Of a stretch of 64,000 nt of DNA, positions 5,407 to 62,940 are shown in pieces. Position 1 is the stretch's first letter; every line of letters starts with the position of its first letter. Under the pieces are notes generated by a model. That model was not told the DNA's origin. It was given only the letters and a program-made list of their open reading frames with translations, and ran no database searches. The stretch comes from Psammoneis japonica (Eukaryota): the NCBI GenBank assembly GCA_008632985.1, contig QPGO01000008.1:290979-354978 (forward strand). Direction: 5' to 3'. The position numbers and the translations under genes are program-made.

Positions 5407-5971
5407 TTTCAGTAGCACGTTCTTCTTGTACAGCGACAGCGACAGTGCATTTTCGTACAGTACAATGCCCGGCTCGAGTGAAGTTATCTCATCATCGTGG
5501 AACTGACTGGCACTGTTCCTGTTGCTTCCTTTCGTCGGAGTCCGTCGGCGTACCGGTACGCTCACTCGGTCACTTGGATCTTGAAGAATCTTTCAATTAT
5601 CAACATCTTCGATATTTATAAATATAAATATGACGTGGATTAAATCACGACTGAAACGCGACCATCAGCCTGATGTGCGTTGTGCGAGCAATGACGAGGA
5701 TCAGTTGTTGCAATTGCATGCACGTCCGTTTGATACATCATCGCATCACATTGCCTGCTTGCTTTTTATTGTATCGTTGTTATTACTTCTCTCTTTTGAA
5801 ATTGCATAGCCAGAGTTGTTTCTAAGCGGTCAAATATTGAAAGTATCATTCAAATCACATGGCGCCTCAAGAAAGAGCCCCGAGTGAAATCACGTCGCTC
5901 GTTGAAGAAGCGAGCGATCGGCGTTCTCCGACGAAACACAACAGCAACACCAATGGCAATAGGTGTTTCAG

Positions 5972-8115: not shown

Positions 8116-8505
8116 GTTGATGTGTTTCTGACCAACAGGGCCAAGAATTGTGGCCGCGGAGAATGTTGGGGGTTTTCGATTGATGGCGGTTGCAATTTGT
8201 GAGCTACTAAATTCAAAATAATCGGATCTGCACTAAATAATAAATATTTGGTGTTCGCAACGACTTATGGTGAATCGTGTCAATCGCGCGAACTGAGCTA
8301 TTTGAAAGTATCAAAATTATTAGATATTGTATATTTTATTAATCTTTTGAACTCACCAAAAAATTCGTTGGTCGCGTACACGACTGCACCTCAACGGTCA
8401 AAGCTGAGTCGATTTAGTCATTTGCTCGCCTGTCTGCGTTGCGTGCTCCAACCTGAAACCTGACATCCAACCTCCATCTATCCAACAGCAAACAAAATAC
8501 ACAAA

Positions 8506-10740: not shown

Positions 10741-11489
10741 GGATGGTGATTGGTGTGATGTGGAAACCCACCGTCCCTTGGATCCGAATGCGTCATCATC
10801 TCTTTGCAACAGAGCTTCGTCCTTTTGTGCCCGCGGTTGGTTGGATGCAAGATCTTGAACGCCGGGCTCATGTGGAACACTCGTTGTTGGATGGTTGGGG
10901 GAAGAGCCGAGGCGAACGCTCTGTCTGGATGATGTTTGTAGACTCAGCAAAAACTCTTCTGAGTTCTCTCTCCATCTCTGTTGGAACAGATTCGAATCTG
11001 TCTTGTTCAGTGTTCTTGCAAAATCGCTCTGGGCGTTGCTTCACCTCTGCTGTAGAGCAGTTCACCTCATCACCGACACTTTTGGGGCCTGCCACAGCCA
11101 GAGAGGTGCAATTCCTGGTTGCTCCAAGGTCTGGTGGCATGCCAGTGCATTCGCACAAAAGACAAACCAACGCATCGGAGTCGAAGGATTCAAATGTTCG
11201 ATTGCGATCATGCCTGATGATTGTCATTTGTGTGTTGCGTGTTCAGTGTTGCTTGTCCAGTGATGCCATTTCTGTTGTGTCGTTGAAGTTGTTCACAACA
11301 CTCCTGTGACACCACATTGTCCAGGAAGAGACAGGCAAAAGCTTGTCAACCACATCATTCCCAATCTTTTTCCTGGCCGCCACTCTTTTTGTTGCCCCGT
11401 CTGATTGCTGCTCGTGCTGTCATCAAATGCAGTGATCTTGGCATGATTGGCTCGAAATGGCAGAGATTCTCATCCGATGGCTCGTCGGA

Positions 11490-12910
11490 GCAGTGCGTTG
11501 GATGTTGGATCCCTTGATCAGGGGTGCCATGCTCTGTTTGACTGGGTTCCAAATGCAGTGGTGGCTTCTCTGAGCGAGCGCAAACTGTGTTGTCCTCAGT
11601 CCGCATGGGTCGAACACGAAGTCTCCAAGATCTGGGACATTTCTGCTTGGTGCATTTTGGATGCACTCATCAAAGCAAACATTGCAAGCAGTTCAGTTGC
11701 ATCCATTGGGATTGCAAATCAGAGGGAGATGACCGTCGCATGGGACAAGGATTCAGGAGAGCTGCTGTGTCCGGCTGATTTGGAATTGTGATGGACCACC
11801 CGCGGGACTTGTTGCTCACTGATGCAAGACACTTTCCAAGTGGGGCTTCCCATTTCTACACCTTTTCAGTGACCGAATTGTGTTGGATGTTTGACAATGT
11901 GGACAGATCAGAGGCCAACGCACGTGTTGGACAAGCGCTTTTTGGGACAACTGATGCTTGGCTCTTGCACAAGCTCACAGAAAGCATGTGACAGATGTGA
12001 CGAATGCGGCGAAGACTTTGCTTGCAGCTTGATGACACTCCATTGGGGCGTCAGCTTCTTGACACTGTTTGATGTTCCCAGATCCATGCTGCCAGCCAAT
12101 GATCCCTCCGTTGGCGGTGACTTTGGGACTGCAGGGTCGTGTCCAGAGTTGAACATGCTGCAATGCTTTGTCAAGTGTGCACTCAAGTGGGAGAAGCCAA
12201 GGCTGCTCGGTCATTCCCAACTGGGGTCTTTCTCTTGGCAAATGTGGGCGCTCAGGAGAAAAGGCAAATTTCACAACGTGGACTCCTTGTGACTCTCTTT
12301 GACCAAATGAAGGGAGAACCGCCAGTCTTTGCTCAAAAGGTGCTTTGCCATGGCAGCATCTGTCGTTCAATGACTCAGCGATGATTTGCAGTTCGGTGAC
12401 AGTGCCAAAGACATTGCAGATTTGGCATCTTCCACCTGTGGCGCTGGCGGGGTGATGTTTGTCGTCACCTTTGCTGGCTTGCTGGCTCCACACTGGGAGG
12501 AGAGAGTGTGTGGAATGATTGCTGGACTCACTGCCTGTCACACCAAGGCACATGTTGTGAGAGCAGCAATCAAGGCGGCAGCATTTCAGTGCTCCAGCGC
12601 ATTTGACACCACTGACTCAAGAGCCCCTGTTTCAGAACTTGGTGCAGATGGTGGAATGGCTGAGAAATCTGATTTTGCACATTTCTCGGCCAACACATTG
12701 GGAGCCAGTGTCCTTCGCCAAAGCAGTCTCGAAACTGCCAACGCTGAAGCCGCGTGTGCCTCGGGTTTGTCAGTGGGTGTCTGGGACTCATTAGATGACA
12801 TCAAGGAACTTTGGGGAGAGGCCTGCACCTTTTCTCCTGACATGTTGGATGACACTCGAAAGGAGCTCAAGCATTCATGGGGCAAGGCAATTGACCTGTC
12901 ATTGGGTGGA
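11490..12910 (+). pseudogene. glpK: Glycerol kinase pseudogene
   Basis: LDQG, CPQSAWVEH, IGIANQREMTVAWDK, LFGTTDAWLLHKLT, FAGLLAPHW, TKAHVVRAA, DGGM and AACASGLSVGVW are collinear with glycerol kinase. Frameshifts and stops present. Confidence 0.9.
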
Positions 12911-13748
12911 CAAACCACACGAGTCCAATTGGGGTCTTTGGACACATGCGAGCAATTTCTAGGTTGTGTTGTTGTTGTGGTGTGAATGGTCAACCACTCC
13001 ATCCAATTGAGGATGGTGCACCTGCCCATTCTTCTGACAGACTCTGTCAAAACAAAGTGTTCTGGTGACACCCCATCCAACAAGATGCAAAAGCGTGACA
13101 CATTGCGAAAATCTCATGCATGCCGCAATCCTTGCGTTTGACGTGACGATGGAGCGCGAGGACCGAGAACATGCCACAACTGCCATCACAGTCATTGACG
13201 TACGTGCGGGATGAAAAACACGCCAATGAAGACTGCTTCACTGTGCTTTTGGCATTTCTGCTTCTGTTGTAAAGGTTCAAAGCGTGTTTCAACAAAATTG
13301 AGACACAAATCGGTCGCGCAGGGTAATTTTGCCTCAAGAGCACCATCAAAAGATGGCACTCAAGCTTTTTCGCATCTTCAGAGTGAAATCTCACCCCAAA
13401 AAAAGAAAAAGGGGGGGCATGACATGGAGACAACAAGAAAACTTGCAAGTCAACCGCTTGCCAAGCCATTTCACTCCCTGCGAGTGAAGGCTCACCGTGC
13501 ACCATGTCACCAGCATGGCAAAACCCCAATTCAGCATTCCATCAATGGTGTGATCTGCTCGGCGAGCTCTTGCTGCTTTGCAGATGAACACTTGCTGTCT
13601 CTTTCAACAGCCGTGGTCTTGACTGACCAAGTGAATGGGCAACTTCCTGCGCTCAAAGGCATGAGAGTGACATGGGCTCAAGGCCGGAGAGATGCGCTCG
13701 ATTTGCCCCGACCTCCGGACTTAACTGGCAACACCTGCACTGCCATTT

Positions 13749-14040
13749 GAGACAACACGCCATCAAGCAAAATGATTTGTGGAACACCAAACAAGAGCAG
13801 GCAATTAGAGCCAGAGGAAGGGCGAGCCATCCTTGGGCATCGCGGCACTCCGGCTTGGCAAACAACAAGCACATCGTACGAGACGATGAGTCGAAAAAGA
13901 GAGACAACACACCACAAAGCAAAATGAGTTGTGGAACGCCAAACAAGAGCAAGCTCTCAATCCAGAGGAAGGGCGAGCCATCTTTGGAGATTGCGGCTTC
14001 CCGCTTGGCAAACAACAACACATCGTGCGAGACGACGAGT
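13749..14040 (+). repeat. Tandem duplication, period 152 bp (13749-13890 and 13901-14040)
   Basis: Shared GAGACAACAC, CCAAACAAGAGCA, CCAGAGGAAGGGCGAGCCATC and GCTTGGCAAACAACAA. Confidence 0.9.
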
Positions 14041-14608
14041 TTTTTACACATGTGTGATCGAACAACGAGTGCGGATTCTCACAGATTTTGAGTCGTCATG
14101 ACCGTTGCTAAATTTGTCAATCACTGTCATTTTTGTGCATCTTTGTAGAACTGTTGCCATGATTTCGCACGTAGAAAGTTGGTGGGCACTGGCACTTTCC
14201 AAATTGTTGCTAATTCCCACGTGCGCTTTACGGCAACCGTCCAAACGCAAAAAACTGCCGCCTTCGTTGTCGAGGTCCGAGCTCCTAGATGATTCATTTG
14301 CCTCACAGTTCTCTGTGCTGGGTCCGTCCTGCGGTTCCCAGATTCTGTGCGATGGTGATGTCATTGAATGTGATGGGTGATGGAACACCATGGCGACCCT
14401 CGACGAGCGCCAACCGAAACGGAGGCGGACTGAAGAGCAACAGGATGCTGCCGTCACCACATGTGACAAGGTAGATTCCGAGAAGCCTTTGTTGGAGGAA
14501 TGTGTCAAACAGATTGGAGAGGTGTTTGATCAAGTGTCGGGTGTCGGAGGTGGGTTGACTCAAAAGATTTGTGACAACGTGAAGGACCTCATGCTGAATG
14601 ATGCCATC

Positions 14609-31699: not shown

Positions 31700-34400
31700 C
31701 TACTCGGTGGTGGTGTGATTGTCGGAGGGATTGAGCTCGAATCATCGCAAAAGCACGTTCAACGTTCATTCCGCGCTTTTTCTGCTGTTTCGCCCGACGC
31801 CAACTGGCCCAGCTCTGAGCAACAGTTTCTTTTGCAGCTGAACGACGAATTTGTGAGATCGAAGAATCGGCAGGTGCATGTGTGTTGTCGGAGACAGCGC
31901 TGGCTTGAAACGAGTGAGGAGTGAGACGTCATGGTCGACGGCGGGCATGTGATGTGGTGCGGTGCGTGGCTCTGGGTGGCGCGCGCGTGGATGTGGCCAT
32001 GGAGCGTCCGTAAAGCGGCCGTTGGAGCGTCCACCTGCCTCCGTACAATCCGAGTATCTTTCTACAGAGGTGTGCGCATTTTGTGCGCATTGTGTGCGCA
32101 TTTTGTGCACAGGCTCCCGGGGTCGAACAAGCATCATCGCGCCTGTTGGCAATGATTGGCGATGCAACTGCAGCATGCACAAAAAAAGAACAGTGATCTT
32201 CCAGAGCACCCTGTGACAGAAAAACCTTGAAGTGGCAGGAAGCAAGGAGGGGAGGCAGCGGCACACACAGAAAAGACCTTTTTTGGTGGTCAGAGGACGC
32301 AGCACAAAACGGCTTTTTGCGTCGAGAGAGCGGCGCCTGGCTTGGGCATGGCGCGGGATCTCTGCTTGCAAAACAAAGTGCTTTTGCAAAAAAGGCTGTG
32401 TGCGCCACATGTTTTGCAGCACACAACAAGGTTGAGAGGGCTTTGTGAGAGGCTGGCGTGGGAGGGGGGGAACAAGAGCCTCCGGACGATCAAAATGTGA
32501 GCGGCCGCCAACAGAAAAAGAGGCGACCCTGCGAGCGTGTCTCTCCCTTCACGCTTGAAGCACACCATCAACAGCTTGCCTGGGTGTGCTCTGCAGACAT
32601 CAAAGAACACACCCAGCGCATTTTCACTCTTGCAAGCATTGAAAATGAAGTGCCCTTGGCTTCACAAAACAGGGGGCATGAAGCAATTTTGCAGAATGTC
32701 GCGCGCAGCCATCTGCGCGCACGACATGCAGCGCGATCCAAAAAACTCTTGATGCCACAGCTTGGCAGTGCTGGGTCCTGCCCACCAGAGCTGGAGCATG
32801 TCTCCGAGTGCTTGTCTGCCCCTCTTTTCAGATGTGCTCCAGCCCGAGGTGGGCGAGGCTGTGCGCGACATTGGGCCCACAGAATGAGCCCACCTGCTGC
32901 ACTTTGGTCACTCAAGCACACTTTGCAAAGGCTGCATGAATGTGCTGAGCAGATGCACTCTGGGTCTGGGCAGGGCCTTGTGCTGCTGCTGAGCTGCGAC
33001 ATTGACAGCTTTTTTGATCATGTCACATGTCGCACGTGCACATTTCTGCACACTCCCAACTGGGAGGTCTGCAAGTGGCACGGAAGAAGACAGAGAAGAC
33101 CTCCCATGGATCGCAACATGACGCTGTGCCAGGCCAGCTGGCGCAGCTTAAAAAAATTGCAACGTGCGATTTTTTTGGTTCCTGGTGCAAAAACGAAAAA
33201 TTCTGCACAGAATTTGCGCAGCCACCATGGCGAATTTGTTTCGCGTCCACCGTCGTTGTCACCTGTTTTCACGAGGTGAGTCACTCAGGACATTGTCGAC
33301 ATTTGTCTGTGGCACCATTGCGTGTTGGCTGAATTTTGACAAGTGCCACTCCGTGCAAGAATGTCGATTTCGATTCCTTCGGTGCATGAGTCTGCCGCTG
33401 TTGTCGTCGTTCCGGTGTGTTTCGTCGAGTTTGTCATTGTCTCCCTCCTCTCATCCCTTCACCTGTGCCTCACTTGTTTCACAATGAATGCAGATAAAAG
33501 GCGCTGATGTGTGTGGCACCTTTGGAGTGTTTGAGACGAGCTCTGGACGTCGCGGCTCGTGGTTGGTGTGTTTCCAACAGACAACAGCGGTCCGGCACTT
33601 GTTCTGTTTGTCCCTCGGTCCGCGCGCAGATTCTTCCCCACGAAAGGGCCTCATGATTTGCTTTGTGGAACATGTTGATGACGCAAACAGTGGTGTTCAT
33701 GGATCATGCATTAAAACACGGTGTGTGAGTTCTCTGGCAAGCTGGGTGGCCTTGCAAGAAATTCCTTGAAGACCTCTCTGCATCCGACGACATTGTGGAC
33801 ACCCTGACCCATTTGACAACCCAGAAAACTTGGCATCATCAGGAGGTCGAAAGACATCAATCTCTTGGAGGACATCTTTGCAGGTTACAACAACGTCATT
33901 CGTGGTGGATCAGTTGGTTTCAAGGAGCATTTGCAGGTGGGAAAAGGACGTGCACGTGGTTGTGCTGGCAGCGTTTGATTTGGAGAAGATTGGTGACAGA
34001 AACATCGCTCCCATGGGAATTGTTCAGACACTGTTGGGTGGGCTTTGTTCTTGCCCGAGGTGCAAAGCATCGTGCGATTGGCCGGGGTTTGTCACTCAGA
34101 TCACTCCATGCAATGAGCAGTGTCGATTTTTTGCATCGAGCCACCTTCATCTGGGAATCAAGCTGGCATCTTTTCACAGTCTTGTTGCAACTCTCTTGGC
34201 TCTTCATTTGTTTTGTTTTCCTGCAGACCTCCTTTTGACTTCAATCCGGCCGTGTCGACGACTCGACCCGAGTTTCCCGATTCGTCACACTTGCGTCATG
34301 CTGGCACAGTCAAGAGAGTGAAAGTTCTGAAAGAGGTCTTTCTTCACTCTTCTGTCAATCAACTTTCCAGTTGAAAGAGATGCACTCGTGTTGTTTTGGA
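31700..34400. other. Unidentified repeat/transposon relic, TpA-depleted but CpG-rich
   Basis: Very few TA between ~32100 and 34400 while CG is common. Short GTGCGCATT tandem units at 32070-32110. Confidence 0.65.
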
Positions 34401-45870: not shown

Positions 45871-45879
45871 GATCGCAGA

Positions 45880-48800: not shown

Positions 48801-51800
48801 GTCCACAAACAATCCCATGTCCTTCTCATGGGCTTGTGATTTTTGTTGCGTCACTTGGAATTTCAAATTAGAGACAGCAGTCGTGCTCTGTTCCGCAGCC
48901 TCTTTGAGTTTGGGACAGTCTTTTGGAAATGGGGTGGTGCCCTGCTCCACTCCAACTTGGTTTTTGACACTGTCCAAGTCACCGAGCACCCAGAGTTTGA
49001 TGACTTTATTCTCTTTAAGTGCAGAGAAGGCAGTGTTGCACCAAGTGACTTCGTGGCTGGCACCCGGTTGCCCAAAAAACTCAGACTTGTGAACGCCACT
49101 GCACCAGACGCGGGCAGCTGCCTTGTTCTCTGTCATGACAATTTGTTGGATTTTCTTGTTGCATTTTCCCAGACAATTGTGAACAGGAGATCAGCACATG
49201 TCGCCAATGATGACACACACAGATGAAGGAATTGTGGATGGCATTGACCAGCGGTGCAGGTTTGGCATTGACAGAAGCTGTGGCAGGTGGTGGGCGAAAA
49301 TGGAAAACAGTGTCAGTTTGCAGCATTCAATTGTGGATGTTGTTGGCACAAGTTAACAACAGCATCAACAGCACCTGTTGTGCTGAGAGCATGAGCAACA
49401 GCATTGGGCATGCCAGTCAAAAGAAATGTGGGGACGATGTTGGCATTCGTGACAGCATCTGTGGGAGGCGGTTTGGCAGGGAAATGACAGTGTGAGTTGG
49501 TGGCATCTCGTTTTGCATGTGTCAGGCCATTCAAAACAGAAGTGATGATGTCACCTGTTGCACCAGTGTTGTTTGTAACAGCGTCAGCAGGAATGGTGTC
49601 CTGCAAAGGTGTTGGGGAACAGTCATGAGAGACATCATCATGGTTGAGTTGTCAAAACACGTGCTTTTTTCGTGGTGTGGAAATGGCCAAAAAAGTGTCC
49701 CACGCAAGCTGTGGTTGGTTCCAGGTGACTCAAGATTTTGGGGTGACATGGGATGGGAGTTTTCACTTGACGACATGTGCATGTTTGCAAGCACATGAAC
49801 ACATCTGACTCAATGCATGTGATGATGTCATCACACATCACCCACACCCACGTCCCACAGGACCACTTGTGAAGGGGTGGGAGACACAAAGCTTGGATTG
49901 CAGAACACAACAGCAAACATCCTCAGCACAAAGGATGTCAAGAGCAGGCACTTCGTTGCATGTGATGACCAAGTGGTGGACAAGAAGACTGGCAAGCAAG
50001 TTGCAGTGCTGTTCAAAGTTGACAACATTGAGCTGGTGTGTGCCTTTGCACCAAGCCAGAAGTTCTTTGACCATGTGAAAGATCTCCAAGAAAGCAAATT
50101 GCATGTGAGCATCCTGTCAAAAAAGAAAATAGATCAGAGAAGAAGAGCAACAAGCAAGAAGCACAAGAGTGCATCTGGAGCCACAGCTCTGACGGTGGAG
50201 CAGAGCTCCATGACAAGCTGCGCCAACAAGTGAGAGGGAGGTGGCAAATGCTGAGCAAGCACTCAGGCTGTGCCACAAAGCTGGAGCACCAAGTGTGAGA
50301 GATTTCAAGCTGTTTTTGTGATCAAGTTGGCTCTGCAAGCTGTGCCAAGAGGTGGTGAATGCCAAGCGAGCACTCAGGATGTGCCACAAACAGCTGGAAT
50401 TTCCAGTGTGAGAGATTTCAAGCATTTTTGTGATCAAATCAGGTTGAGAACTTGTTCATCGTGCAGGAAGACATGGAATGGTGGACATTTGGGGGCCACC
50501 TGTCACCCTGCCAGAACAAAAGGCCAAATGTTGACATTGATCCCATGAGAGGAACAACATCATTGCCATTCCACCTGAGACACATGAGAAACAAAAAGAA
50601 GGTGTGATCCCCCCTGTGTTGTTGTTGTGGAATTGTGTGGAGTGAAGATTCCACATGCAGCTGGCAAGATGATCAAGTGTCAATCAAGTGTGAGAATGTG
50701 AGTTCAAGAAATGTGCCAATGCATGCAGTGCATTGGACATGATGCTGTGCCAGCACAACATGGCTTCATCCAAGATTGACTTCATTGAGTGTGATCCTGA
50801 GTTCAAGGCTGTGTTGGAGGAAGTTGCTGACAGCATGAACCTGGAGCTGATGTCTGGCACACAAATGCCAGCAACCATGTTCCCAAAGTTGAGCAGAGCA
50901 TTGAGATCATCAAGGAGAAAACTCAAGCCACAGTGCACCACCTTCCACACAAGGCAATGCCCAAGCTGATGTGCAAGCACACTGCAATCAAGAACACTGT
51001 GATGGCAAACATGTGCCCAAAGGAATTTCTGACACACACAGTCCATGCACTGTTGTGCAATGAAGAAACCTTGACTGTGACAAGCACCTCAGTTCATTTG
51101 TCCTGTCCCATGTTGAAAACAACTGGACAAACACCATGGGTGCATGTGGCATTGACAGCATGTGCCTGCAACCACCTTTTGACATTCCCAAGGGTGGGCA
51201 CCACACTGTGAAGAATCTGCACACAGGAAAACTGCTGAACCCCTGCAAGTGCACTGCCACACCCCTGACCAACACATGCACACAAGTGGTCAAGAAGATG
51301 GCCTCATTGCAGGGCATCAAACACTTCAAATTTGCAGACAACCTGTGCAACGCTGATTGGACTGCAGGAGCAGATGACAAGAAAGCAACAACAAGAGCAA
51401 CAATGACAGTCAAGACAACAACAAGAACAAGCACAATGATGCCAACTGTTCAACCAAATCAGAGAACAAAAACTGCAAATGTGAGCCTGACTCAGATGAA
51501 GAACATGAAGAAGCAAACAAAATGCTGGCAGGCAAAAGATCCAGCCCCGATTGATGGCATGATGACTGCAAGACAAAGAACAAAAAAACCATGAACAAGA
51601 CAAAGAGTCAGAAAAAGACAATGAACCCACAAAGGGGAAAAGAGGAGAAGCAAAACTGACAGAAGATGCGCGCAAGATGCCAGTGAGAGTGATGAGGAGT
51701 GGCGCCAAGTTCAGCACACCCCACAACATGATGTCACGCAAACACAGAGAAAAAAGTTTGATTTGCAGGACTGGCAGATGCAGAAGTGGAGCAAGAGCAG

Positions 51801-53530
51801 AGAGCAGAACAAGCTTGAGTGCTGCCATCACTTGAGAAAAATGTCAGCCCCAATCTGGGGAACAACATTGTTGAGTGCAACACAGAAACAGGAACAGCAA
51901 TGTCACATTTTGTGTGTGAGATCAATGGCTGGCTCTAGTCAGAAAAGGGGGTTTTCTTTGCCTGATGGCACCTGCTGCATGAAGGCTCAAAAGCATTTGG
52001 TCAGAGGGGGCATGATGCCTCTGAGAAGGAGACAAAACAACTCCACAACAGAGTGCACTTTGCACCAACATCAATTGAAAATGCAACTCTGGCTGAGAGG
52101 GCCAAGGCTGTGATTGCTTTGATGTTCCTGATGGAGAAGAAAGATGATGGTTGCATGAAAGGGCAAATGGTTTGCAGCAGCAAACCAACCAGAGAATGGT
52201 TGGACAAGGATGAATCAGCCAGCCCAGGTGCATTGTTGTTGGAAGGGACATCAACAACTGCTGTTGTTGACACTGTGGAACAAGAGCACGGTGCAATGAG
52301 TGCAAATGTCTTGAGCATGTTTCCACAGACACAGAGGTGCTGGAGCCCAAGGAAGGCACAGACTGGATCATGATGAAGATCACAGGAGTGTTCATTGACA
52401 TGCCAGCAAGCATTGATCCCAACCTGTGCTGGCCACATGTGGCCATGGAGAAGGGGAAAGAGTTCTCAGTGTCCAAGTCACCAAAGCTGCCCATGGCATG
52501 TTGGTCATGACTCCATTGTGGGGCAAGCAATTTTGCAATGCCTTGGAAAAGATTTGATTTGAGTGAGTTCAACCCATGTGATCTGTTCATCACCAATTGC
52601 AGACAACCTGTTGCTGAGCCTCAAAGAACCCCAAAGCAAACAACATGTTTTTGAGCTGGCCAAACAAGATGCACGGAAACCACGGCAAAGTTGTCACAAC
52701 AAGAGGAAAGAAATGTGGCCACCTTGGCATGATTGTGGACTTTAGCCACAAGGGCAAGGTGAAGGTTGATGTGACCAACTGCACTCACAAGATGATTTGA
52801 TGCCAGCTGGTGAAGAAAAACCATTTGACGCTGGTGGCACCAGACTGCCAGCAGAGCAAGCAAAGATGTGCCCACATGTGTGGGCAGCCAAGGGGTCATT
52901 CCTCTCCAAGAGAGGTTGTGTGGATGTGCACCTGACCATCACAACATTGTGTGTGCAAGTCAGGGAACCAACCAACAAAGATTGGGGAAAGCTGGTCTTT
53001 TGCCTCAAGTGTTTGATCTGGGCACAAAACGAAGTTGCTGCATTGAGTGCAAAGAACCTCCAAATCATCAAGTGGCATGTGGATGCCTCCTTTGTGGTGC
53101 ACAAGGATTTCAACAGCCACACAGGAGGAGTTGTGACCATGGGTGATGGAGCAGTGCAAGCCACATCAAAGCAACAGAAGCTCAACAAATGAGGCAGTGC
53201 TGAAGCTGAGTCAACAGGAGTTGACAATGCAACAACCATGTGATGCTGTGGACAAAGTTGTTCATGGAACATCAAGGCCACCCAATCAACAAAAACATCC
53301 TGTGTCAGGACAACAAGAGCACCACACTGTTGGAAAACAATGGGTGCAAGAGTGCCAGAAACAGGCTCTTGCTGATCAGATCAAGAAGGGCAATCTTAGA
53401 GTGCAGCGTTGTCCAGCCGATGACATGCTTGGAGACTTCATGACTGAGCCATTGCAGGGCAAGAAATTTTGAAAATTCAAACAAGCCATTGTGGGCTGTC
53501 AGGGTCAAGCATGAAAGGAGTGCTTCCTGT
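45880..53530 (+). mobile_element. Decayed Ty1/Copia (CoDi-like) retrotransposon A: gag-protease ~45.9-47.1 kb and integrase-RT-RNaseH ~50.7-53.5 kb, split by nested DNA
   Basis: HPKTIEKAI, IILDDGS...STNAG, ECDPEF, HHLPHKAMPK, LMFLMEKKD, FNPCD, KWHVDASF..H.D..SHTGG, NILCQDNKS, CPADDMLGDFMTEPLQG. That both halves belong to one element is inferred from their collinearity. Confidence 0.85.
47140..49840. mobile_element. Nested element with long (~0.5-0.65 kb) diverged inverted termini containing ~180-bp internal repeats (foldback/Mutator-like)
   Basis: 47200-47700 is the reverse complement of ~49300-49800, e.g. AAATCTTGAGTCRCCTGGAACCAACCACAGCTTG. The unit AACTGACRCT recurs at ~47490, 47670 and 47855. 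Confidence 0.7.
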
Positions 53531-55889
53531 TTGTGATGTCAGACAAGAAATCTGATGCATGCAGGTGAAAGATCCTGCAAAATGGAAGATGTGAAACAAA
53601 CCCTGTGGCTCAGCCAATTGCAGCTTGTTTTCCAAGCAGCCATGATGTTGATGGCCGTGCATGCCGGCATCAGAGGAGATGAACCAGGGCATGTGAACAA
53701 ACACCTGGAACCACATGACTTTGCCGCGAGATGTCAGCTGCAACGTCATTGGAAGAAGCTCAACATGTTTTGACAATTGTCAAACAAAAACAAAAAGAGA
53801 AGAGAACTTCAAGACCCAAACTGCCAAAAGGCAGTGGCAGAGCATGACAAGTGGAGGAAGCAATGCCTGTGAATCCATTTGTCCATCAAGAAGTGGTTGA
53901 CATGGGTCTCTTGACACTTGAGTTCCAGAAACATGGGAAGGTCATCTGGGCTGTTCTCCACAGAATGCAAGAAAAGTGCAAGAAGGAATTTGAGGAAGAC
54001 CGGCACAAGTGGTGGACAGCAAGGCACATCACATTGTGGTGCACATGTTCTGCAGTGCAAGAGTGGGTCTGCAAAGTGCACCAGTGTGTTTCCACTGCTG
54101 CGCCAATGATCTCCCTGTTGGACAAGAGACAAGAACACATGATCACAGCATTTGAGACATGCAGAAGTGCAAGGGAAGCACACAAGACCAAGGAACATTG
54201 GGAGATTGTTGGAAGCCAAGAGCCAGGATTTAAGGATGTGAATGTTGCTGCAGAAAAAGATCCTGTGAAGACTGTCCCAACAAGCACAATGAAGAAAAAC
54301 AACCATGGGGTCAAGTGGCAATGATTTTTGTTTTGCCTCAGACAAGGAGGGCGTCGACCATCTGAGCAAACTGTTGTTGGTGAGCTGCCCCACCTGCGGG
54401 ACATGTGAACCTCTTGTGGAGAAGCACACTGCCAACTTGCCCCAAGAGACAAAAGAGTTTCAGCTTGGATTGGTGCAAGACAATGAGGGCATTGTCTGCG
54501 ACACTTTAAAGTTGGCACAATTTTTCCAACATGGAGTTGTTGAAGCAAAACCCAGACAGGAGCAGGCCTGCCACAATGTGGAATTTTGTGAGCTGTGCTC
54601 ATGGAGGATTGATGAGTGGGTCGTGGATCTGATCAAAAATGTGGGTCCTTGCAGCAAGAATGAAGAAACAGAAAGGACTTGCCACACTTGTGGGAAGCAT
54701 TTTGTGGATCAAACAGAAGGGATCACAAATGCCCTCTTTGATCTGGTTGACTTTGAACATGATGTGGAAGGATGTTTGCTTTGCTTGTGTGAACTGTTGG
54801 ATGGTGGCATCAAGGCAGTTGACATGACTGGCAAGTTTGTGGTGATTGCTCCATGAAGAGAAGTTGAGCCTGACTGCAGCTGGGGAAACAAACATCAAAT
54901 CATCAGCACAAGCAGCAGGAGCATGTTGGATGGTGCAATGAACCTGGATGCACTGAAGAGAAGACATTGTTGCTCCTGATGCAGAGGGTTCAGCAACTTT
55001 TTGCAATTGAAAGTCAATCATTGCCCATCTCTCTTAAATTTCTGCTTTTGTCTCACTCTTTAGAGGGAATCATTTGGCCCATCACAACCACACAACTCTG
55101 TTGCATTGGTGTCACCAGGTGCTTTTTGCACTGCAAGTTCAAAGTTTGAGGCCTGCGCCAACAACTTCTGGGCAACCCACAGCTGCTGCAAGAGCAGCAG
55201 CCAACAAGCAAATGCAACAAGCAGCACAGGAAGCCTCACAAGACTCTGTTTTGGTGATGCCAGCTTGCTGGTTCAACATGTTGATGCCATTTCATTGTTG
55301 AGCACAACCCAAAGGAGCACATGCATGCCATGCTGGCAAGGTTGCTGGCAAGGCAAGAGATTTTGCAAAGGAGAAGTTTGTGTGTTGACAACAATTGCTC
55401 AAAAATTGTGCCATGTTTTGAGCCTGATTTTGGAATTGCTCCCCATTGTCTGTGCCAAGCTGAAGTTTTGTTGTTCCAGTGTTTGTGCTGCAATCAACCC
55501 TTCCCACATCTCATTGAGAGATTCTTGAGAGAGCTGGCACAGTGCCAACAGCTGCTGTGAACAGCAAGATTGACTCATTTGAGGCCCTTCACAATTTTGA
55601 AATGGCTTGCAGCAGACTCAAAAGGGACAAAAGAAAAACAGAGCCAAAAAATGCAATGCTCTGAGAGATGAAAGCTGCAAGTGCTGAAAACAGAGATGTT
55701 GCTGGAAGCTGGCAAAATTGGAGCACACTTCCAGACACTCTTCCCTTCAAGCACAAGCAAAAAGGAGAGAGAGAGAGAGAGAGAGCTCACTGCACACTGG
55801 TTGCAAAACAATGTGCTCCAAAGATGACAAGGCAGAATTGGCTCAAAATTGTGAAATGTTTTTGGAGTGCAAGCATGTGAGGACATGGG

Positions 55890-57293
55890 ATGGGCTGGAA
55901 ACAGCAAGAAAAAACAGGAGATGAAGTGGAAGCAGCCAAGGTTGTTGACATCATTGACCAACTCAAACAAGGCAGGTGCTGCAAAAGGATGCAAAGAGGG
56001 GAAGACTCCAAAGAAGACTGCTGCTTTTTGTTTTGTCTCAAGGAACATCTTGAGACATCTCCAGCATGGGACAAAATCAAACTCGTGGGTGATGCTAAAA
56101 AGTCTTTGACTGAAGACTTTCCCCAACTGTCCCTTGTGGACTTCGAGTCCTTTGCTCTAGAGCGCTGGGCACTTGAAGAACCAGACAAAGTCCGTGAGCT
56201 CTGCAACAACCAGACATCCGAGCACTTTGCTCAACGCGCGTCAAAGCAACTGCTTGTTGCATCATTTGACAAAGAGCCACGTCAGGATGTTGCCCCGGAC
56301 ATGAACAAAGCATGCCACAGTGACGGCTCCACGCACTTCTTCTTGGCTTGCCAGAAGCTCTTTCCGTTGCCTCAGATGCACATCAACAACATCCAGTCTC
56401 AGATGTTGAAGATCTCTCTGGTCAATGACTGCGACAGCAACGTCGACAAACACATGAGCAAGTTCCGCCAGCACTTGCGCCTGCATGCTCAGCGTGACAG
56501 TGCGCTCGAGCATGCCCTCACAGAAAAGGCATTTGAAGAATTCAAGACTGCCCCTTGCAAACCCTTCGCGGACGAGATGGCCAAGCACAAGACAGAATGG
56601 ATGCGCAAGACACAGGTCACGTGGACAATCAAAACCCTGTTTGACGAGGCGATCAGCCTCAAAAATGCTTGTGTGGCCCAGCAGATCTGGGACAAGCCCT
56701 CGGACAACGACACTCAACCAATGGCCCCAATTGTGGGTCAGAAAGAGACAGTCGGATTCGCGCAGCAAATGGCCAAGGTCACGACCGCCTTGCAGAGCAC
56801 CCTGCACCAGCAGACACGATTCGAACGTCACGGCCGTCATGGCAGGCGCGGCAATCCAGGTCGCGGTGGTCGTGGTGGACATCATGGGCGCGATCGCCCT
56901 CGTGCACCTCATCGTGGATCCCCGCCGTTCTTGCATCTCGAACCCAAAAACAAGTCTCAGGAAAAACAATGGGGTGACAAGACCTGGCATTGGTGTGATG
57001 CTTGTAAGATGCATTCTACATGCCACAGCACTGACACTCATGATGAGCACATTGCTGCAAACAGCAACAAGAGCGGTGAGCGCACATCCAACCAGGGCGG
57101 CGGCGCACAGAAAAGGAGCGCCTGCGACCACAAGCGCCAAAAGGCTCAGTCTAAGATTCAGGCTGACATTGACAAGTTGCAGAAACTCACTGCCAACTTT
57201 TCTTTCTCCAAATCTGTTGCTGCTCTTGAGCAACAGAGGGGAGATGGCAATTGGACACTCCTGGTTCGCCACATGCTTGGGATCCGGTTTTAA
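55890..57293 (+). pseudogene. gag: Copia B gag
   Basis: 467-aa ORF with an RGG-rich segment and knuckle-like KTWHWCDACKMHSTCHSTDTH, directly upstream of the protease. Confidence 0.75.
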
Positions 57294-57332
57294 TCAAATG
57301 CTTTCCTGGAACGGTCAAAACAAAAGCAAAGC

Positions 57333-60300
57333 ATGAAACTGGCGCCATCTGTGCTAAAACTGCACCAGCAACGGCATGGTTTAGCAGGAGAGATTGTCGA
57401 CAATGCTTGTGCCTTTGAGACAGCTCTCGAGAACCGCGGACGATTCATCCGTGGTGGCCCCGTGCAAGCGAAACCCCGCTCCACGTCTGCATTTGTTGAC
57501 AAACGTGATGTGCCACAACTGGCCAAAGCACATGAAACTGTTGACTCTGGAACTCCTGAAGAAAACAAGGAGCTGCTGAGCACTTTAGCAGAACATGCTG
57601 CACACCTCACAGATGAGGCACCTGCCCTGACATCGGATGAAATTCACTTGGTGATTGATTCCGGTGCATCTGTCACCATTGCAAACAATGAGAATGATTT
57701 TACAGGGCACACAAGACCAGTTCAGAACTTGAACTTGAAGGGTGTCGCTTCAGGCCTCGCTGTGGAAGGCATTGGCACGGTGAGATGCTCCTTCATGGAC
57801 GACGCCGGTGTCAACTTCACCGTCAACATAGAAAACGTGTCACACGTCCCCACCTGCCCGGTCAGACTGCTTTGCCCACAGCAAGTGGCAGCCACAAGTC
57901 CCAATCAGGATGCTGATGGGTTCTTTACACGTGGCAGTTCTGTGACAATGATTTGTGGGCAGCATCGCAAGACAGTGCGATGTCATCATGAACCAAATCT
58001 TCCGATTCTTGCTGCTGCACCAGGCTTCGGCAACTGCCAAGCATTTTGCTCTGACACAAGAGCTGATGGCACTTTGCCATCATGCACCAATGTCAAAGCA
58101 CACTCGGCTTCGTGTCTGGCTTTTGCTGTCACAACACGAAAGCAAGAGGCGGCGGCCGACACAAAGGTCAGACCGACTCAAGCCAACAAGCAAAATGAAA
58201 CCACAAATGTGAACGGCAAAAAGGCCCGGCCTGCCCAGCCTCAACAAGCCTCACCAGTTCACGAGGGAGGCACAGAAGACAATCTGCTCCCCATTCAACG
58301 CGACATGTTAAAATTGCATCATCGCATGGGCCACGTTGGATTCGAACAAATCCGAGAATGGGCCAAAATCGGCATGGTGCCAAAACGCTTCAAAAAATGC
58401 AAAGCCCCGGTCTGCAAAGCTTGCGCATGTGCCAAAGCAAAGCGCAAAGCTGCGCAATGTGGTCATCGAATTGATGAATGCCACGACGATGCTCCAGGTG
58501 AGGTGCATCGGCGGACCAACTCGACGCGAGTCATCCAGGCCCACTTCCCACTGCTCGTGGCAAACCAACCACTCGCAGGTGCAAACACTGCACCCCATGG
58601 ATTGATCATTTTTCTAGATTTATCTGTCCATGTGTGCAAGAGTCTGCTGGAGGAAAAGAGACTTTGAATGGCAAAACCAAGCTCGAGAGATTCGCAGCCA
58701 AACACAACATCAAAATCAAGCATGTTCATGCCGATGACAGCATGTTCGCTGCTGCAGAGTTCACAGAACACTGCATTGAAAACAAACAACGGAACTCCTG
58801 TTGTGGAGTGGGAGCACACTGGCAAAACGGCATCTCCGAACGGCACACAGGCGTCATCACCTCGATGATGCACACGTGCCTGTTGCACGCTCAGTCCCTG
58901 TGGTCTGATGCAGCAACTACAGAGTTGTGGCCACACGCCATTCAACAAGCTGACAACTTTCACAATGTGTGCATCAGAAAGGGCAAACAGAAAAACCCCT
59001 GGGAACTGTTCACTGACGAGAAACCGCCATTCCAAATGGATGATTTTCGCGTGTGGGGGTGTCCTGTTTACATCGCGGACAAAAGTGTCCAAGACGGGAC
59101 TCACATCGGAAGATGGGCCAAACGGTCACGACAAGGAGTGCATGTGGGACATTCGCTGGACCATGCCAGCAATGTCTGCCTGGCATGGGACCCCACAACC
59201 AAACACGTCTAGCCACAATTTCACGTCACTTTTGACGAAAACTTTACAACAGTGGCGCCCCCCGGAAACACGTCCACCGACGCATTAGAGGCAGCTCTTG
59301 AAAAACCATTCAATGACCACAGCAATGCTTGGACTCACCACGATGAGTGCTTCAATCACAATTGACACCATTTTGAAAAGAATGTCTGGACTGAGGACGA
59401 CTTGCTCCGTGAACACGGCATCAACCCTCAAGCGTGCAAACAGATGCAGAAAAAGAATCACAAATCACGAGGGAGCAAACGCACTCGCAACGGCGAAGAA
59501 AAACCAGATGCTGACGACACATCAGCAGAGATTCTGCCAGCTGCTGGTGCCTCGGACACAACACCGACCCACGCAGCAGCTGCACCAGCAAATGCGACAA
59601 CACCAGCAGAATCAGCACAAGCCCCTGCCTCCGAGGCTGTGCTGCCTGTGGCGGCAGGTTCTACATCGGAGAATGCAGACGGGACCGGCTCATTGTCACA
59701 CCGCCCGCCAGCGGTCGACAATGCAACACCATCACTCATTGACAATGCAACAACCCCCGGCCCAACTGTGGCAGGATCAGAGGATGCTGCAACTTCTTTG
59801 ACAACACAAGAAGCCCTCAATGGCCTCAACATGGAAGCTGACCATGCTCGGCATCAATTTCAAGAATGCAAACGTCGAAAAGGATTAGACGACGAGGCAA
59901 CATGCACCATGGCACCAAACAATTTGAACCCGACAGACTCACCTGACGCAACCGCGTGTGCAACTGTGCCTCCACACCATCAGGAAGCAGCAGCAGAGCT
60001 GTGTGAAGAACCAGCCCATCTGATGGCACTCATGGGTTCCGCAGACAATGACACACTCCTTGACGAAGGAATTTGGAACGAATCCAGCCCACCAGCTTTT
60101 GAAGCAGCGGCGCTCGGAAATGCAGATGATCTGACCCAAGGTCAGATGAAGAAAGCGCCAGACCGTGCCGAATTCGAAAAAGCACAAGTGCCTGAAACAC
60201 AGGGTCTTGTAGACATGGACGCATGGGAACATTTGCCACGTTCCGAAGTTCCAAAAGACCACCGCCTGCTGAACGCGACATGGTCCTATAAAAGAAAAAG

Positions 60301-61800
60301 AAAACCAAATGGTGAACTGTCAAAACACAAAGCAAGAACATGCGTCGACGGATCAAAACAACAACACGGTGTTGACCATTGGGACACATTCACCCCCGTC
60401 ATCGCGTGGAGTGCAGTGAGACTCATTTTGTGTCTAGCGGCAATTGCCTGTCTGAAAAGCAGACAAGTGGACTGTGTGCAAGCATTTCCACAAGCAGAGC
60501 TGGAAGAACCAGTTTGTGTGAGACTCCCAGAAGGTTGGGAGGTCAAAGATGAAAATGGGAACACAATGCCAGACATGGCATGCAAACTCAAAAAGAACCT
60601 GTGCGGCACGAAAACTGCTGCACGAAACTGGTTTCAGAAACTGTCCAAAGGCCTGGAACGCCGAGGATTCAAGAAATCAAAACTGGACCCATGTCTGTTC
60701 ATCCGAAATGACAGCATCATCCGCTTGTGCACAGATGATTGTCTCGCATTCGCTCCAACAAATGACATTGTCACGACGCTCACACAAGAGCTCAAACAAG
60801 ACGAGTTCCAACTTGCCGACGAAGGCGATGCATCCGCTTTCTCAGGCGTTGACATCACTCAAACCGCAAACGGCGAGATGTCAATGACCCAGACTGGCCT
60901 TGTTGATTCCATGTTGACAGACCTTGGCCTGCAGTCAACCAACAATGAACCGTTGCAGAACAAGCCACGTGCAAAGGCTGCCCCAGAAGCACAAATGTTG
61001 CACCCTGATTCGAACGGTCAGGAGCGTCAAGAAACATGGAACTGCCAGTCAGTCATCGGAAAGATGAGTTTCTCAGCTCAAATGACTCGCCCTGACATTG
61101 CAATGGCGGTGCATGTGTGCGCTAGATTTTCGAATTGCCCAAAGGCATTGCACGAACGCACTGTCAAATGCATCGGACGCCACCTGTTGGCAACTTCAAC
61201 AGACGGAATTAAGTTCCGGCCAAAAGGGAAATTCTCCCTGGATGCACATGTTGACAGCGACTTCGCAGGAATGTGGCACAGAAATTTTGCCCACCTCCAC
61301 GATTCGCACCTTTCCCGATCAGGACATGTCATCACATTTGCTGGCTGTCCCATCTGTTGGAAGAGCAAATTACAAACCGAGACAGCTCTCTCCTCAACTG
61401 AGGCTGAACTTGTTGCGCTATCACAGTGCTTACGTGAGCCATTCCCTGTGAGAACTGCGCTGGAAGAATTGTCCAAAACCATGGATTTTGAACTGGCAGA
61501 TTCACACATTGAACCCGGTTCTCTGGAAACTCTTGTGTCACCACACAAGCTTCCCCCGTCCACCGCACATGAAGACAATGCCGGCTGCATTGTCCCAGCC
61601 ACATCTGACGAGCAACACAGAGTGCCGGAGCCAAGCACATTAGCATCAAATGGATGCATTTTCGTGACCACATCAAACGTGGTTCTGTGAAGGCAGTGAA
61701 AGTTGACACCAACCACAATTGGGCAGATTTGCTCACTGAACCTCTTGGAAGAACCAAGTTCGAAGGTTTGAGGCGCATGACAATGGGTTGGCAACCCTGT
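57333..61800 (+). pseudogene. pol: Copia B pol (protease, integrase, reverse transcriptase, RNase H), with frameshifts and one TAG
   Basis: VIDSGAS; LHHRMGH..CKAC; HVHADD, CGVGAHWQNGISER, WGCPVY; KHKAR, NLCG, LCTDD, TRPDI; HVDSDFAG, ALSSTEAE, HEDNAG, ADLLTEPL. Confidence 0.93.
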
Positions 61801-62012
61801 GAGCAGTTCAACACGGCTGCAGAATGTGACAAAAACAGCATTTTTGACTTGTGCAAATGGCGCCATTGTCTCGCTTCTCCTCGAAGCACGAGGGAGAGAC
61901 AAACCCTAGACACACCCTAGACACTTTCTAGGGATGCTCTAGAGGCTTAACAAAGACATTGCTTCATCGGCTTAGCTTCTCTTACATTGCTTGACAGAGC
62001 CCTCGTCGACAC

Positions 62013-62030
62013 GAGGGAGTGTCACGGTCA
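62013..62030 (+). promoter_or_regulatory. Polypurine tract (GAGGGAG) and start of the 3' LTR (TG at 62020)
   Basis: CACGAGGGAG|TGTCACGG about 220 bp downstream of the RNase H end. Confidence 0.6.
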
Positions 62031-62940
62031 GCGTACGACGTGCAGACGGACAGACTGTACCTCGTAGAGAACAGCTCGTGCTGACTCAGTGGGATGATGT
62101 CGAAGACACCTCTGAAGTGACTGACGTGGATAGATCATAGACCGCAGAAGCAGTGAGCCTCTAAAGCTCACAATGTCTTCACAAGACACAGCTCCATTTT
62201 CACAGACATGTGCCAGTCTTGCAATTTCTGCAAAATGTCTTTCAACAAACTGCAGCGCCAGTCACTTGACAATGTGCAAGAGGGTTGTGGTGCTGGTCTT
62301 CTCACTTGAGCTCCTCAGCTTCAGAAAAAAATGCTGCGCTGCATGATTTGAAGCAAAGTTGATTTGTGATGACACCAACCGTCTCATGGCAACAAGGCAG
62401 TTGAAACAGATTGACCCCTTGACATGCTCCAAAGATTCTTGGCTGCATGGCTTTCCCCTTCACTTGTGTGGCTGGGAGTGTGAAAATGGGCACAATGGCT
62501 GAGCTCTTGCAGCAGAACAAGGCATGACCTTCTGGGTCTTGGCATGTCAAAAAACAAGATCTGTTGTTGAGAAAGCCAAAAAACAATGCTCAAACATTTG
62601 AGTGCTGCTGAGCCAACAGCAGGTTGGGAAACTGAAGAAACAAGAAGAACTTCAGAAAGATTCTTGTCAAGAAAACTTCAGAAAGATTTTTGTCAAGAAG
62701 CAGACAAAGTGCAAGTGCTTGATGCAGAAGAAGCCAAGGAGCACTCTGTGGCAGATGACAACAAAACAGGAGAAGAAGAGCCTCTTGGTTTTTGAACTTG
62801 GACAGCAGCTGGTCAACATCAAAAGTGCTGTTTGTGGGAACAGGCCATGTGCAATTTTAAAAGCAGGGCAGCACCCAGAAGCAGTCAGCAAAGCATGCAA
62901 GTTGCCACAAGAAAATGTTCTACAATGTGCAGCTCAGTGC

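What the first reader, a model, noticed from the sequence alone, without database searches (positions are those of the whole stretch)
56161..57000. TpA loss is uncoupled from, and apparently faster than, CpG decay
Seen: by eye these 840 bases contain zero TA but about 50 CG, and 32.1-34.3 kb behaves similarly. More decayed blocks have lost both (1-960 has 2 TA and 4 CG; 50-55 kb is similar). Inference: TpA conversion saturates while an element is still young and its ORFs are largely open, and CpG deamination follows later. The TG/CA excess is therefore not just methyl-CpG decay, and the two indices give a two-stage clock for TE age.
Basis: partly seen in the sequence, partly recalled or inferred. 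Interest (0 to 1): 0.75.

Follow-up and report, generated by a model that had tools for sequence, protein, structure and literature searches.

The report
Fast TA, slow CG transposon decay
In this diatom, inserted jumping genes have their TA steps rewritten to TG or CA about ten to thirty times faster than their CG steps decay, both in the same stretches and usually starting near the front of the element, a mutation pattern I found described in print only for viral DNA in one unrelated alga.

Summary
Observation confirmed: 56161-57000 has 0 TA (41 expected) and 51 CG. It is the gag part of a dead diatom Ty1/copia copy. A TA-rich sister copy shows the history: 27 of 27 TA gone, 40 of 56 CG kept. 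Over the element, 256 of 309 TA became TG/CA (128:128) against 65 of 318 CG. In a young copia family, TA loss reaches 72% while CG loss stays at or below 7%. It happened after insertion, on both strands, prefers TAC/TAT and usually starts in the 5' part. 'Faster' and 'not just methyl-CpG decay' hold (ratio 8-28). 'Uncoupled' does not: CG decay is fivefold higher inside TA-hit bins (rho 0.91 across copies). TA loss does not track neutral divergence among young copies, so it probably dates targeting, not insertion. Open ORFs prove nothing, since the change creates no stops. Closest known: TpA hypermutation of viral DNA in Bigelowiella (2026 preprint), which mentions no diatoms or CpG. Likeliest agent, inferred only: a TadA/ADAT2-type adenine deaminase acting in silenced chromatin. 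This scan has already noted the process and the two-clock idea many times elsewhere in this genome.

The parts
56161..57000 (+). The finding: gag-region DNA of a copia copy with every TA converted and most CG kept
   Evidence: 0 TA, 51 CG. Against sister copy L020: 27 TA became 15 CA, 11 TG, 1 other; of 56 CG, 40 kept, 14 became TG/CA, 2 other; 11 CG stand only in the window. 8 Tyr codons in the open frame of L020, 0 here.
56024..62188 (+). 5'-truncated Ty1/copia LTR retrotransposon copy (family F1)
   Evidence: 88-90% identical to G000:C160 (L020) and 91-93% to C171 (L021). The alignment to L020 starts about 750 nt after the start of that copy's 5' LTR.
57294..58667 (+). Protease and pre-integrase part of pol
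   Evidence: Pfam Pol_BBD and gag_pre-integrs; translation.
59366..61690 (+). Reverse transcriptase / RNase H frame, open for 774 codons but with 1 tyrosine
   Evidence: RVT_2 E=7e-36. Of 11 columns that are mostly Tyr in 120 homologues, 8 read Cys or His here, 2 Phe, 1 Leu. The one that reads CTDD is the position of the catalytic YxDD (motif name recalled).
62019..62188 (+). 3' LTR, the least converted part of this copy
   Evidence: Matches both LTRs of L020. 61700-62188 keeps TA o/e 0.43. In the last two bins (61621-62188) 14 of 38 TA are kept.
50000..56023 (.). Older repeat block that has lost both TA and CG; sharp border at 56024
   Evidence: 55400-56024 has 0 TA and 0 CG, 56024-56600 has 2 TA and 24 CG. 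19 relatives of 50000-55500 are all low in both and differ by 6.9-11% transversions.
62189..62900 (.). Both-lost block on the other side of the copia copy
   Evidence: 1 TA, 3 CG. I could not show that it joins the left block in any relative held.
32100..34300 (.).
   Evidence: 4 TA, 106 CG. Part of it (about 33050-34630) has at least 8 copies at 92-95% identity; they were not compared base by base.
1..3900 (.).
   Evidence: TA o/e 0.03-0.10, CG 0-0.15 per 500 nt over 1-4000.
8500..14200 (.). Repeated segment carrying an FGGY kinase fragment, at an intermediate stage
   Evidence: Pfam FGGY_C. Against the TA-rich homologue L128: 127 of 173 TA and 116 of 266 CG became TG/CA, 5.7% transversions.

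Best explanation
Two mutational processes act on the same silenced DNA at very different speeds. (1) SHOWN: after insertion, copy by copy, A:T>G:C transitions at TpA accumulate on both strands, with preference TAC>TAT>TAG>TAA and a weak spill-over to other NAY sites. They usually start in the 5' internal part (about bases 350-3000 of a 6.5-kb element) and extend as a front; some copies are hit from a TA-poor neighbour instead. (2) SHOWN: CG>TG/CA decay is raised in the same bins but is 8-28 times slower, so TA saturates when CG is 5-25% gone, and only old repeats lack both. (3) INFERRED: the shared domain is heterochromatin with CG methylation; the slow process is deamination of 5-methylcytosine; the fast one is deamination of adenine to hypoxanthine in DNA by a TadA/ADAT2-fold enzyme. 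The two indices therefore stage a copy by time since it was targeted, not time since it inserted. The result is inactivation by loss of Tyr and other missense changes with frames left open. Odds: descriptive part about 0.9; shared silent-chromatin targeting about 0.75; adenine deaminase about 0.55.
For: DIRECTION: 40 of the window copy's 44 TA are shared with L020, while 269 of L020's 309 are lost. At 37 sites the window and L021 differ as CA against TG where L020 has TA. Conserved Tyr became Cys or His. AFTER INSERTION: in 13 young copies with matching target-site duplications (read by eye and summed by hand), LTR pairs differ at 69 TA-type sites (52 in the 5' LTR, 17 in the 3'), 9 CG-type and 29 other. 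Copies agree at shared hit sites no more than site bias predicts (0.60 against 0.62 over 7245 site-pairs, two near-duplicate pairs left out). BOTH STRANDS: sense/antisense odds 0.92 after context correction, LRT 1.9; no strand runs (872/1667, p=0.12). PURITY: of 1427 changed TA in 15 young copies, 1405 are TG or CA. FRONT: 5' part more converted than 3' part in 12 of 15 young copies, p=0.0015, also where both flanks have normal TA (L109, L111, L114), and in L243 of a second family. COUPLING AND RATES. CONTEXT: TAC 556/1014, TAT 306/689, TAG 219/745, TAA 115/600, AAC 33/1078, CAC 32/1360, AAG 0/1617. This matches adenine base editors, highest at TAY and lowest at MAR (PMC10879117, passages). 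In Phaeodactylum, CG methylation by DNMT5a targets TEs including young LTR-copia (PMC9998398, passages). G000 has 27 matches to PF00145 and an ADAT2 gene.
Against: No methylation, chromatin or inosine data were seen. No enzyme is tied to the process: ADAT2 is a general tRNA enzyme, so its presence proves nothing, and the search showed no expanded deaminase family (9 matches). A>G cannot be told from T>C on the other strand by sequence alone. The rate ratio is not constant (28, 7.9, 7.8 in three groups), and the young value is raised by choosing bins on TA loss. 3 of 15 young copies show no 5' excess, and L245 is hit from its 3' end. L099 and L244 lie beside TA-poor DNA and are untouched. Five F2 copies lack matching target-site duplications and may be recombinant or misassembled. 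Copies of one family are not independent samples of the genome.
Confidence: 0.7

Rival explanations
1. One reading: two independent clocks, TA first and CG afterwards, both timing insertion age.
For: The order holds at large scale (quadrant counts). Over 25 copies CG loss tracks neutral divergence (rho 0.76) better than TA loss does (0.60). 12 of 22 letter differences in run X1 over 44-64 kb are CG-type although CG is scarce there (alleles or paralogues, and X1 may be the source sample).
Against: CG decay is already fivefold raised inside TA-hit bins of the youngest copies. TA loss spans 0-72% at equal neutral divergence. L114 and L103 have 59% and 41% TA loss with 0 non-TA, non-CG differences between their LTRs, like the almost untouched L107.
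Confidence: 0.1
2. The fast process is thymine chemistry or repair error rather than adenine deamination: oxidised thymine that mispairs with G, or error-prone (Pol eta-like) patch repair triggered by T:G mismatches from methyl-CpG deamination.
For: It would explain the coupling to CG decay directly. Pol eta favours A>G at TA and AA (recalled). Non-TA A>G is raised inside hit bins (162/32622 against 40/34888).
Against: TA is hit about 30 times more than AA and 98.5% of changes are transitions, purer than Pol eta spectra as I recall them. TA hits outnumber CG hits about 9 to 1 in hit bins (1209 to 139). No Tet_JBP match was found, but the control was silent too, so this is uninformative.
Confidence: 0.25
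3. Pairing-dependent 'reverse RIP': homologous repeats recognise each other, and both partners are mutated in a burst at sex.
For: Confined to repeated DNA with sharp borders. Diatom DNMT4 enzymes may be related to RID (PMC9998398, passages).
Against: Copies 98-99% identical to many others are untouched while sisters are over half converted. Hits are not strand-coordinated. In Bigelowiella a single-copy region mutates in clonal lines.
Confidence: 0.1
4. Editing of the RNA or cDNA during retrotransposition (ADAR- or APOBEC-like).
For: A 5' U/T preference and a gradient along the element are features of such editing (5' U preference; the gradient is recalled).
Against: Both strands are hit equally. 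The two LTRs of one insertion differ. A repeated segment carrying a host-gene fragment is hit too.
Confidence: 0.03
5. Selection or codon bias against TA, or a sequencing or assembly artefact.
For: TA is mildly under-represented in genes too (o/e 0.4-1.0).
Against: The changes destroy conserved residues in dead copies and follow element borders. Independently assembled contigs of run X1 reproduce the TA-poor sequence, with 22 listed letter differences in 20 kb.
Confidence: 0.02

Closest known systems
TpA hypermutation of integrated NCLDV and virophage DNA in Bigelowiella natans (Mettrop et al., bioRxiv 10.64898/2026.01.13.699255; read parts 1-3 of 5, abstract to conclusion, plus term searches; supplements closed)
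   Same: A>G and T>C almost only at TpA, giving TpG and CpA; local to foreign DNA; far above background; uneven between lines there and between copies here; ADAT2 proposed as the agent.
   Different: Here a diatom; LTR retrotransposons and other repeats; run to saturation over about half the window (68 of 127 bins), against TpA o/e 0.45 in the Bigelowiella viral region. The preprint's main text has 0 occurrences of diatom, CpG, retrotranspos-, trinucleotide or context, so the TAY preference, the 5' front and the link to CG decay are not in it. There the rate was measured; here it is inferred.
Repeat-induced point mutation (RIP) of ascomycetes (features recalled; named)
   Same: Dinucleotide-specific transitions that cripple repeats and spare neighbouring genes.
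   Different: Opposite chemistry (RIP makes TpA from CpA/TpG and lowers GC; this removes TpA and raises GC). RIP creates stops and this removes them. It is copy-specific, and not strand-coordinated.
Methyl-CpG decay of silenced TEs; DNMT5a-dependent TE methylation in Phaeodactylum (PMC9998398, passages)
   Same: The slow component: CG>TG/CA, symmetric (34:31), confined to repeats.
   Different: It accounts for about a fifth of new TG/CA here. In other hosts of related copia it occurs without TA loss (L192 TA 0.76, CG 0.18; L233 0.75, 0.31). Phaeodactylum mutation lines show a GC>AT bias of 2.21 and no mention of TpA (PMC6604790, passages).
TadA-derived adenine base editors (PMC10879117, passages)
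   Same: A>G in DNA with the same context order: best TAY, worst MAR.
   Different: Engineered and guided to an R-loop on one strand; here natural, on both strands and across kilobases. The likeness is one of signature only.

Membership tests
Bigelowiella-type TpA hypermutation | Almost only A:T>G:C transitions, at TpA | tested here: met
   1405 of 1427 changed TA became TG/CA; other A contexts 0-3% against 19-55% for TAN.
Bigelowiella-type TpA hypermutation | Both strands, on integrated chromosomal DNA | tested here: met
   128:128; strand odds 0.92; LTR pairs differ.
Bigelowiella-type TpA hypermutation | Local to foreign or mobile DNA, sparing host genes | tested here: met
   Profile against Pfam-identified genes and TE domains; borders. 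Only one window and chosen loci were examined.
Bigelowiella-type TpA hypermutation | Rate about 1000 times background, active in only some clonal lines | not testable with these tools
   Only a relative figure: 78% of TA against 0.23% of non-TA, non-CG sites changed by GC>AT or transversion in the same bins.
Bigelowiella-type TpA hypermutation | Same enzyme (ADAT2 proposed there, untested) | not testable with these tools
   An ADAT2 gene is present, as expected of any eukaryote.
Fungal RIP | C:G>T:A at CpA/TpG, creating TpA | tested here: not met
   Opposite direction; 4 of 44 window TA are not shared with the sister copy.
Fungal RIP | All near-identical partners mutated; strand-coordinated bursts | tested here: not met
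   Untouched copies at 98-99% identity; runs tests negative.
Fungal RIP | Premeiotic timing, RID dependence | not testable with these tools
   None.
Methyl-CpG decay (slow component) | CG>TG and CG>CA, symmetric, above other C>T | tested here: met
   65 of 73 changed CG; 5.7% of CG inside hit bins against 47 GC>AT changes in 32622 other sites.
Methyl-CpG decay (slow component) | Sites carry 5-methylcytosine | not testable with these tools
   27 methyltransferase-domain matches in G000; no methylation data.
ADAR/APOBEC editing during retrotransposition | One strand only; fixed before integration | tested here: not met
Ty1/copia LTR retrotransposon (the host element) | Order protease, integrase, RT (RVT_2); LTRs | tested here: met
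   Pol_BBD, gag_pre-integrs, SH3_retrovirus, RVT_2 in that order (two of these below their cut-off). 3' LTR present, 5' LTR missing here but present in L020.

The most novel reading that the evidence does not exclude
A diatom couples its CG-methylation silencing to a natural DNA adenine editor. Silencing nucleates near the 5' end of a new retrotransposon copy and spreads along it; a TadA/ADAT2-fold deaminase follows and rewrites nearly every TpA before ordinary divergence is measurable. This would be a heritable transposon-killing system of the opposite polarity to RIP, shared with a rhizarian and so possibly ancestral in SAR. Its front would be a fossil record of how far and how long heterochromatin has spread on each copy.
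Probability: 0.4. Interest if true: 0.9.

Novelty: new variant of a known kind. Interest (0 to 1): 0.7.

Why it matters
It extends a process reported once, for viral DNA in a rhizarian, to diatom transposons, where it runs to completion. It adds three testable properties: a TAY context like TadA editors, a 5'-to-3' front within copies, and co-location with CG decay at about a tenth to a thirtieth of the rate. If the agent is an adenine deaminase, it would be a natural genomic A-to-G editor used in defence. In practice, LTR-divergence dating and TE annotation in this genome are biased: TA-type changes made up 69 of 107 LTR differences in 13 young copies, and converted dead copies keep long open frames and gain GC, so they can pass for genes.

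Tried and rejected
LITERATURE: nine searches. Six on TpA, RIP or TA dinucleotides with diatoms, algae or stramenopiles and one on diatom mutation spectra listed no diatom report of TpA erasure; only the Bigelowiella preprint fitted. Searches were for background. The library lacks most subscription papers. PMC12344493 (passages) has 0 mentions of TpA or Bigelowiella. BREADTH: 0 of 80 related copia loci from metagenomes have TA o/e under 0.43 (best-scoring hits only, which favours intact copies). L236 dips to 0.18 in one 400-nt bin and is undecided. 3 of 120 homologous Pol proteins (P0147, P0220, P0238) have Cys/His at 6-7 of 11 conserved Tyr columns, but their hosts are unnamed. ENZYME: no expanded PF00383 family; Tet_JBP search uninformative; Atlas search of the second A_deamin gene gave no usable hit. 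READS: no RNA holder listed; only contigs of one run could be laid. Strand-coordinated bursts were sought and not found. A nested-insertion join of 55 kb and 62.2 kb was not found. The copies of the 32-34 kb block were located but not compared. DROPPED ROWS: L120, L126, L127 (partial or distant) and the three reference copies; L100 (fates; 5'-truncated); pairs L104-L122 and L105-L108 from the concordance test. The first per-copy counts under-called 5' TA sites (219 against 257) and were replaced.

Full report
OBSERVATION. The counts are right. 56161-57000 has 0 TA and 51 CG (o/e 0.81); 32100-34300 has 4 TA and 106 CG; 1-960 has 2 and 4; 50000-55000 has 6 and 29. Base composition predicts 41.4 TA in the 840 nt, so zero has P about 1e-18. 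Gene-rich stretches mostly keep TA o/e 0.4-1.0. The host is a diatom: the best named homologues of the peptidase M16 gene at 39.5-41.3 kb are from Attheya, Fragilariopsis and Leptocylindrus.

WHAT THE DNA IS. The stretch is the gag region of a 5'-truncated Ty1/copia copy, 56024-62188, with protease, pre-integrase, SH3 and RVT_2 domains in copia order. Its 774-codon RT frame is open but holds 1 tyrosine, against a median of 3.2% over it and 120 homologues; 8 of 11 conserved Tyr columns read Cys or His, the products of TAY>TGY and TAY>CAY.

DIRECTION AND SPECTRUM. G000 holds a TA-rich sister (L020, 90% identical). Over 6107 aligned columns, its 309 TA read 128 TG, 128 CA, 40 TA and 13 other in the window; its 318 CG read 245 CG, 34 TG, 31 CA and 8 other. 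In the 840 nt of the finding, 27 of 27 TA are gone and 40 of 56 CG are kept. Only 4 of the window's 44 TA are absent from L020. A third copy (L021) differs from the window as CA against TG at 37 sites where L020 has TA and agrees at 47, which is what independent hits on an ancestral TA give. About four fifths of new TG/CA therefore come from TA.

A younger copia family (F2, 6.55 kb) gave 31 loci. With three real copies as reference, the 16 copies with under 0.3% transversions have lost 0-72% of TA and 0-7% of CG: for example L115 68% and 4.1%, L110 56% and 5.8%, L107 3% and 1.9%. Older copies reach 89-92% TA loss with 16%, 29% and 50% CG loss (L118, L117, L119). The order is strict: 0 of 127 window bins and 0 of 983 bins of fetched loci are CG-low with normal TA, while 22 and 178 are TA-low with normal CG (the fetched loci are chosen repeat relatives, not a random sample). 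In other hosts the empty class does occur (2 of 80 metagenome loci). The both-lost block at 50-55.5 kb is older by its relatives: 6.9-11% transversions to 19 of them, against 0.6-0.9% for the copia copy and its three closest relatives.

First, the processes are coupled. In young copies, bins with at least half their TA converted have lost 139 of 2454 CG; bins with at most a tenth converted have lost 27 of 2360 (odds ratio 5.2, p=4e-19), while other GC>AT changes and transversions are similar (75/32622 and 56/34888). Across the 16 copies the two fractions rank together (rho 0.91). The difference is rate: the ratio of -ln survival is 26-28 in young copies and about 8 in two older groups. The young value is raised by choosing bins on TA loss; the older values are lowered by saturation and by differences that predate insertion. 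Second, TA loss is a poor clock of insertion. It shows no relation to neutral divergence among the 16 copies (rho -0.006, small counts), and L114 and L103 have 59% and 41% loss with no non-TA, non-CG difference between their LTRs. Over all 25 copies CG loss follows divergence better (0.76 against 0.60). Third, open frames are a by-product. The change cannot create a stop: the 840 nt have 0 TAA and 0 TAG in six frames, against 16 and 4 in the sister.

A FRONT INSIDE EACH COPY. Conversion is not spread evenly. Bases 350-3000 are more converted than bases 4500-6200 in 12 of 15 young copies (p=0.0015); L110 has 91 of 93 against 0 of 83, L098 75 of 90 against 0 of 83. The 3' sites are not resistant, since older copies convert them. 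The pattern holds on both genomic orientations and where both flanks have normal TA (L109, L111, L114), and recurs in L243 of another family. The window's copy fits: complete loss in gag, 14 of 38 TA kept at the 3' end. Exceptions: L115 and L122 are converted throughout, L107 hardly at all, L245 is hit from a TA-poor 3' neighbour, and L099 and L244 sit beside TA-poor DNA untouched.

WHEN AND HOW. In 13 young copies whose target-site duplications match (read by eye and summed by hand), LTR pairs differ at 69 TA-type sites (52 in the 5' LTR), 9 CG-type and 29 other, so the changes follow insertion. Copies agree at shared sites no more than site bias predicts (0.60 against 0.62). There is no strand bias after context correction (odds 0.92) and no strand runs (p=0.12), so many separate events accumulate. 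1405 of 1427 changed TA are transitions. Read as A>G, the order is TAC 55%, TAT 44%, TAG 29%, TAA 19%, then AAC 3.1%, CAC 2.4%, AAT 1.9%, down to AAG 0 of 1617. TadA-derived editors are best at TAY and worst at MAR (PMC10879117, passages). I therefore favour adenine deamination in DNA by a TadA/ADAT2-fold enzyme (about 0.55), working in heterochromatin whose methyl-CG supplies the slow process. This is inference. G000 has ADAT2, a TadA-like gene (my reading), two A_deamin genes and many methyltransferase domains, none tied to the process. In Phaeodactylum, CG methylation targets TEs including young copia (PMC9998398, passages). Run X1 shows 22 letter differences over 44-64 kb: 12 CG-type, 8 TA-type, 2 other, one TG/CA site being counted in both classes. 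This fits CG decay still running, but the contigs may be paralogues and the run may be the source sample.

COMPARISON. The closest system is TpA hypermutation of integrated viral DNA in Bigelowiella natans (bioRxiv 10.64898/2026.01.13.699255; parts 1-3 of 5 read): all but one of 231 new mutations in two regions were A>G or T>C, at TpA, with ADAT2 proposed. Its text does not mention diatoms, CpG, retrotransposons or sequence context; its supplements were closed and may hold context data. The diatom process works like it and meets the features I could test; shared enzymes are untested. It is not RIP: opposite chemistry, copy-specific, no strand coordination. Seven searches found no diatom report. 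It is not general among hosts of this copia lineage: 0 of 80 metagenome loci are TA-erased, though 3 of 120 Pol proteins of unnamed origin show the Tyr>Cys/His mark.

EARLIER NOTES OF THIS SCAN. The process, LTR-pair evidence and the two-clock idea were noted many times on other pieces of this genome; the look-ups pointed to no other genome. I had my reading and the preprint before opening them. Two notes call TA loss 'separate from' CG decay; my counts agree on chemistry and rate but show shared location. The short listings I saw do not mention an internal 5' front or the TAY context, but I saw only a few lines of a few notes.

VERDICT. New variant of a kind described once. Interest 0.7.

Noticed in passing
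G000:C79 (L160:3172-4888, +) and G000:C40 (L159:3435-4975, +): Two separate A_deamin (ADAT1/ADAR-type) genes, apparently without dsRNA-binding domains in the exons I read; one more than a lone ADAT1. Possible candidate editor, though the 3' preference I recall for ADAR differs from the one seen.
   Followed up: partly
window 8500-14200; L128, L129, L130: A repeated segment carrying an FGGY kinase fragment exists as converted copies (window, L130) and a largely unconverted one (L128); host-derived sequence is converted along with the repeat.
   Followed up: partly
window 47251-49743: Long inverted repeats (up to 321 nt, 79% complementary) in a TA-poor block; possibly a decayed foldback or DNA element.
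   Followed up: no
window 34745-37000: Repeated element with many 95-98% copies, a 542-codon frame without Pfam match and intermediate TA (o/e 0.15-0.33) with near-normal CG; probably an early stage.
   Followed up: no
window 45165-45932 (-): Beta-helix domain frame inside a zero-TA stretch next to normal genes; may be a converted gene copy.
   Followed up: no
window 62900-64000 and L028: Repeat of about 713-nt spacing with very high read depth (up to 16000 against about 90) that keeps CG but lacks TA; satellite-like.
   Followed up: no
L101, L104, L105, L106, L110: F2 copies without matching target-site duplications; three share the same first 3' flank letters and L104 shares its 5' flank and 34 of 35 hit states with L122. 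Recombinants, alleles or assembly chimeras.
   Followed up: partly
P0147, P0220, P0238; L236: Copia sequences from unnamed metagenome records with Tyr>Cys/His or partial TA loss; a hint that the process occurs in other organisms.
   Followed up: partly
window vs L020, L021: Weak A>G at CAY makes some new CG (6 window-specific gains from CA/TG in 2.9 kb), which slightly slows the apparent CG clock.
   Followed up: partly
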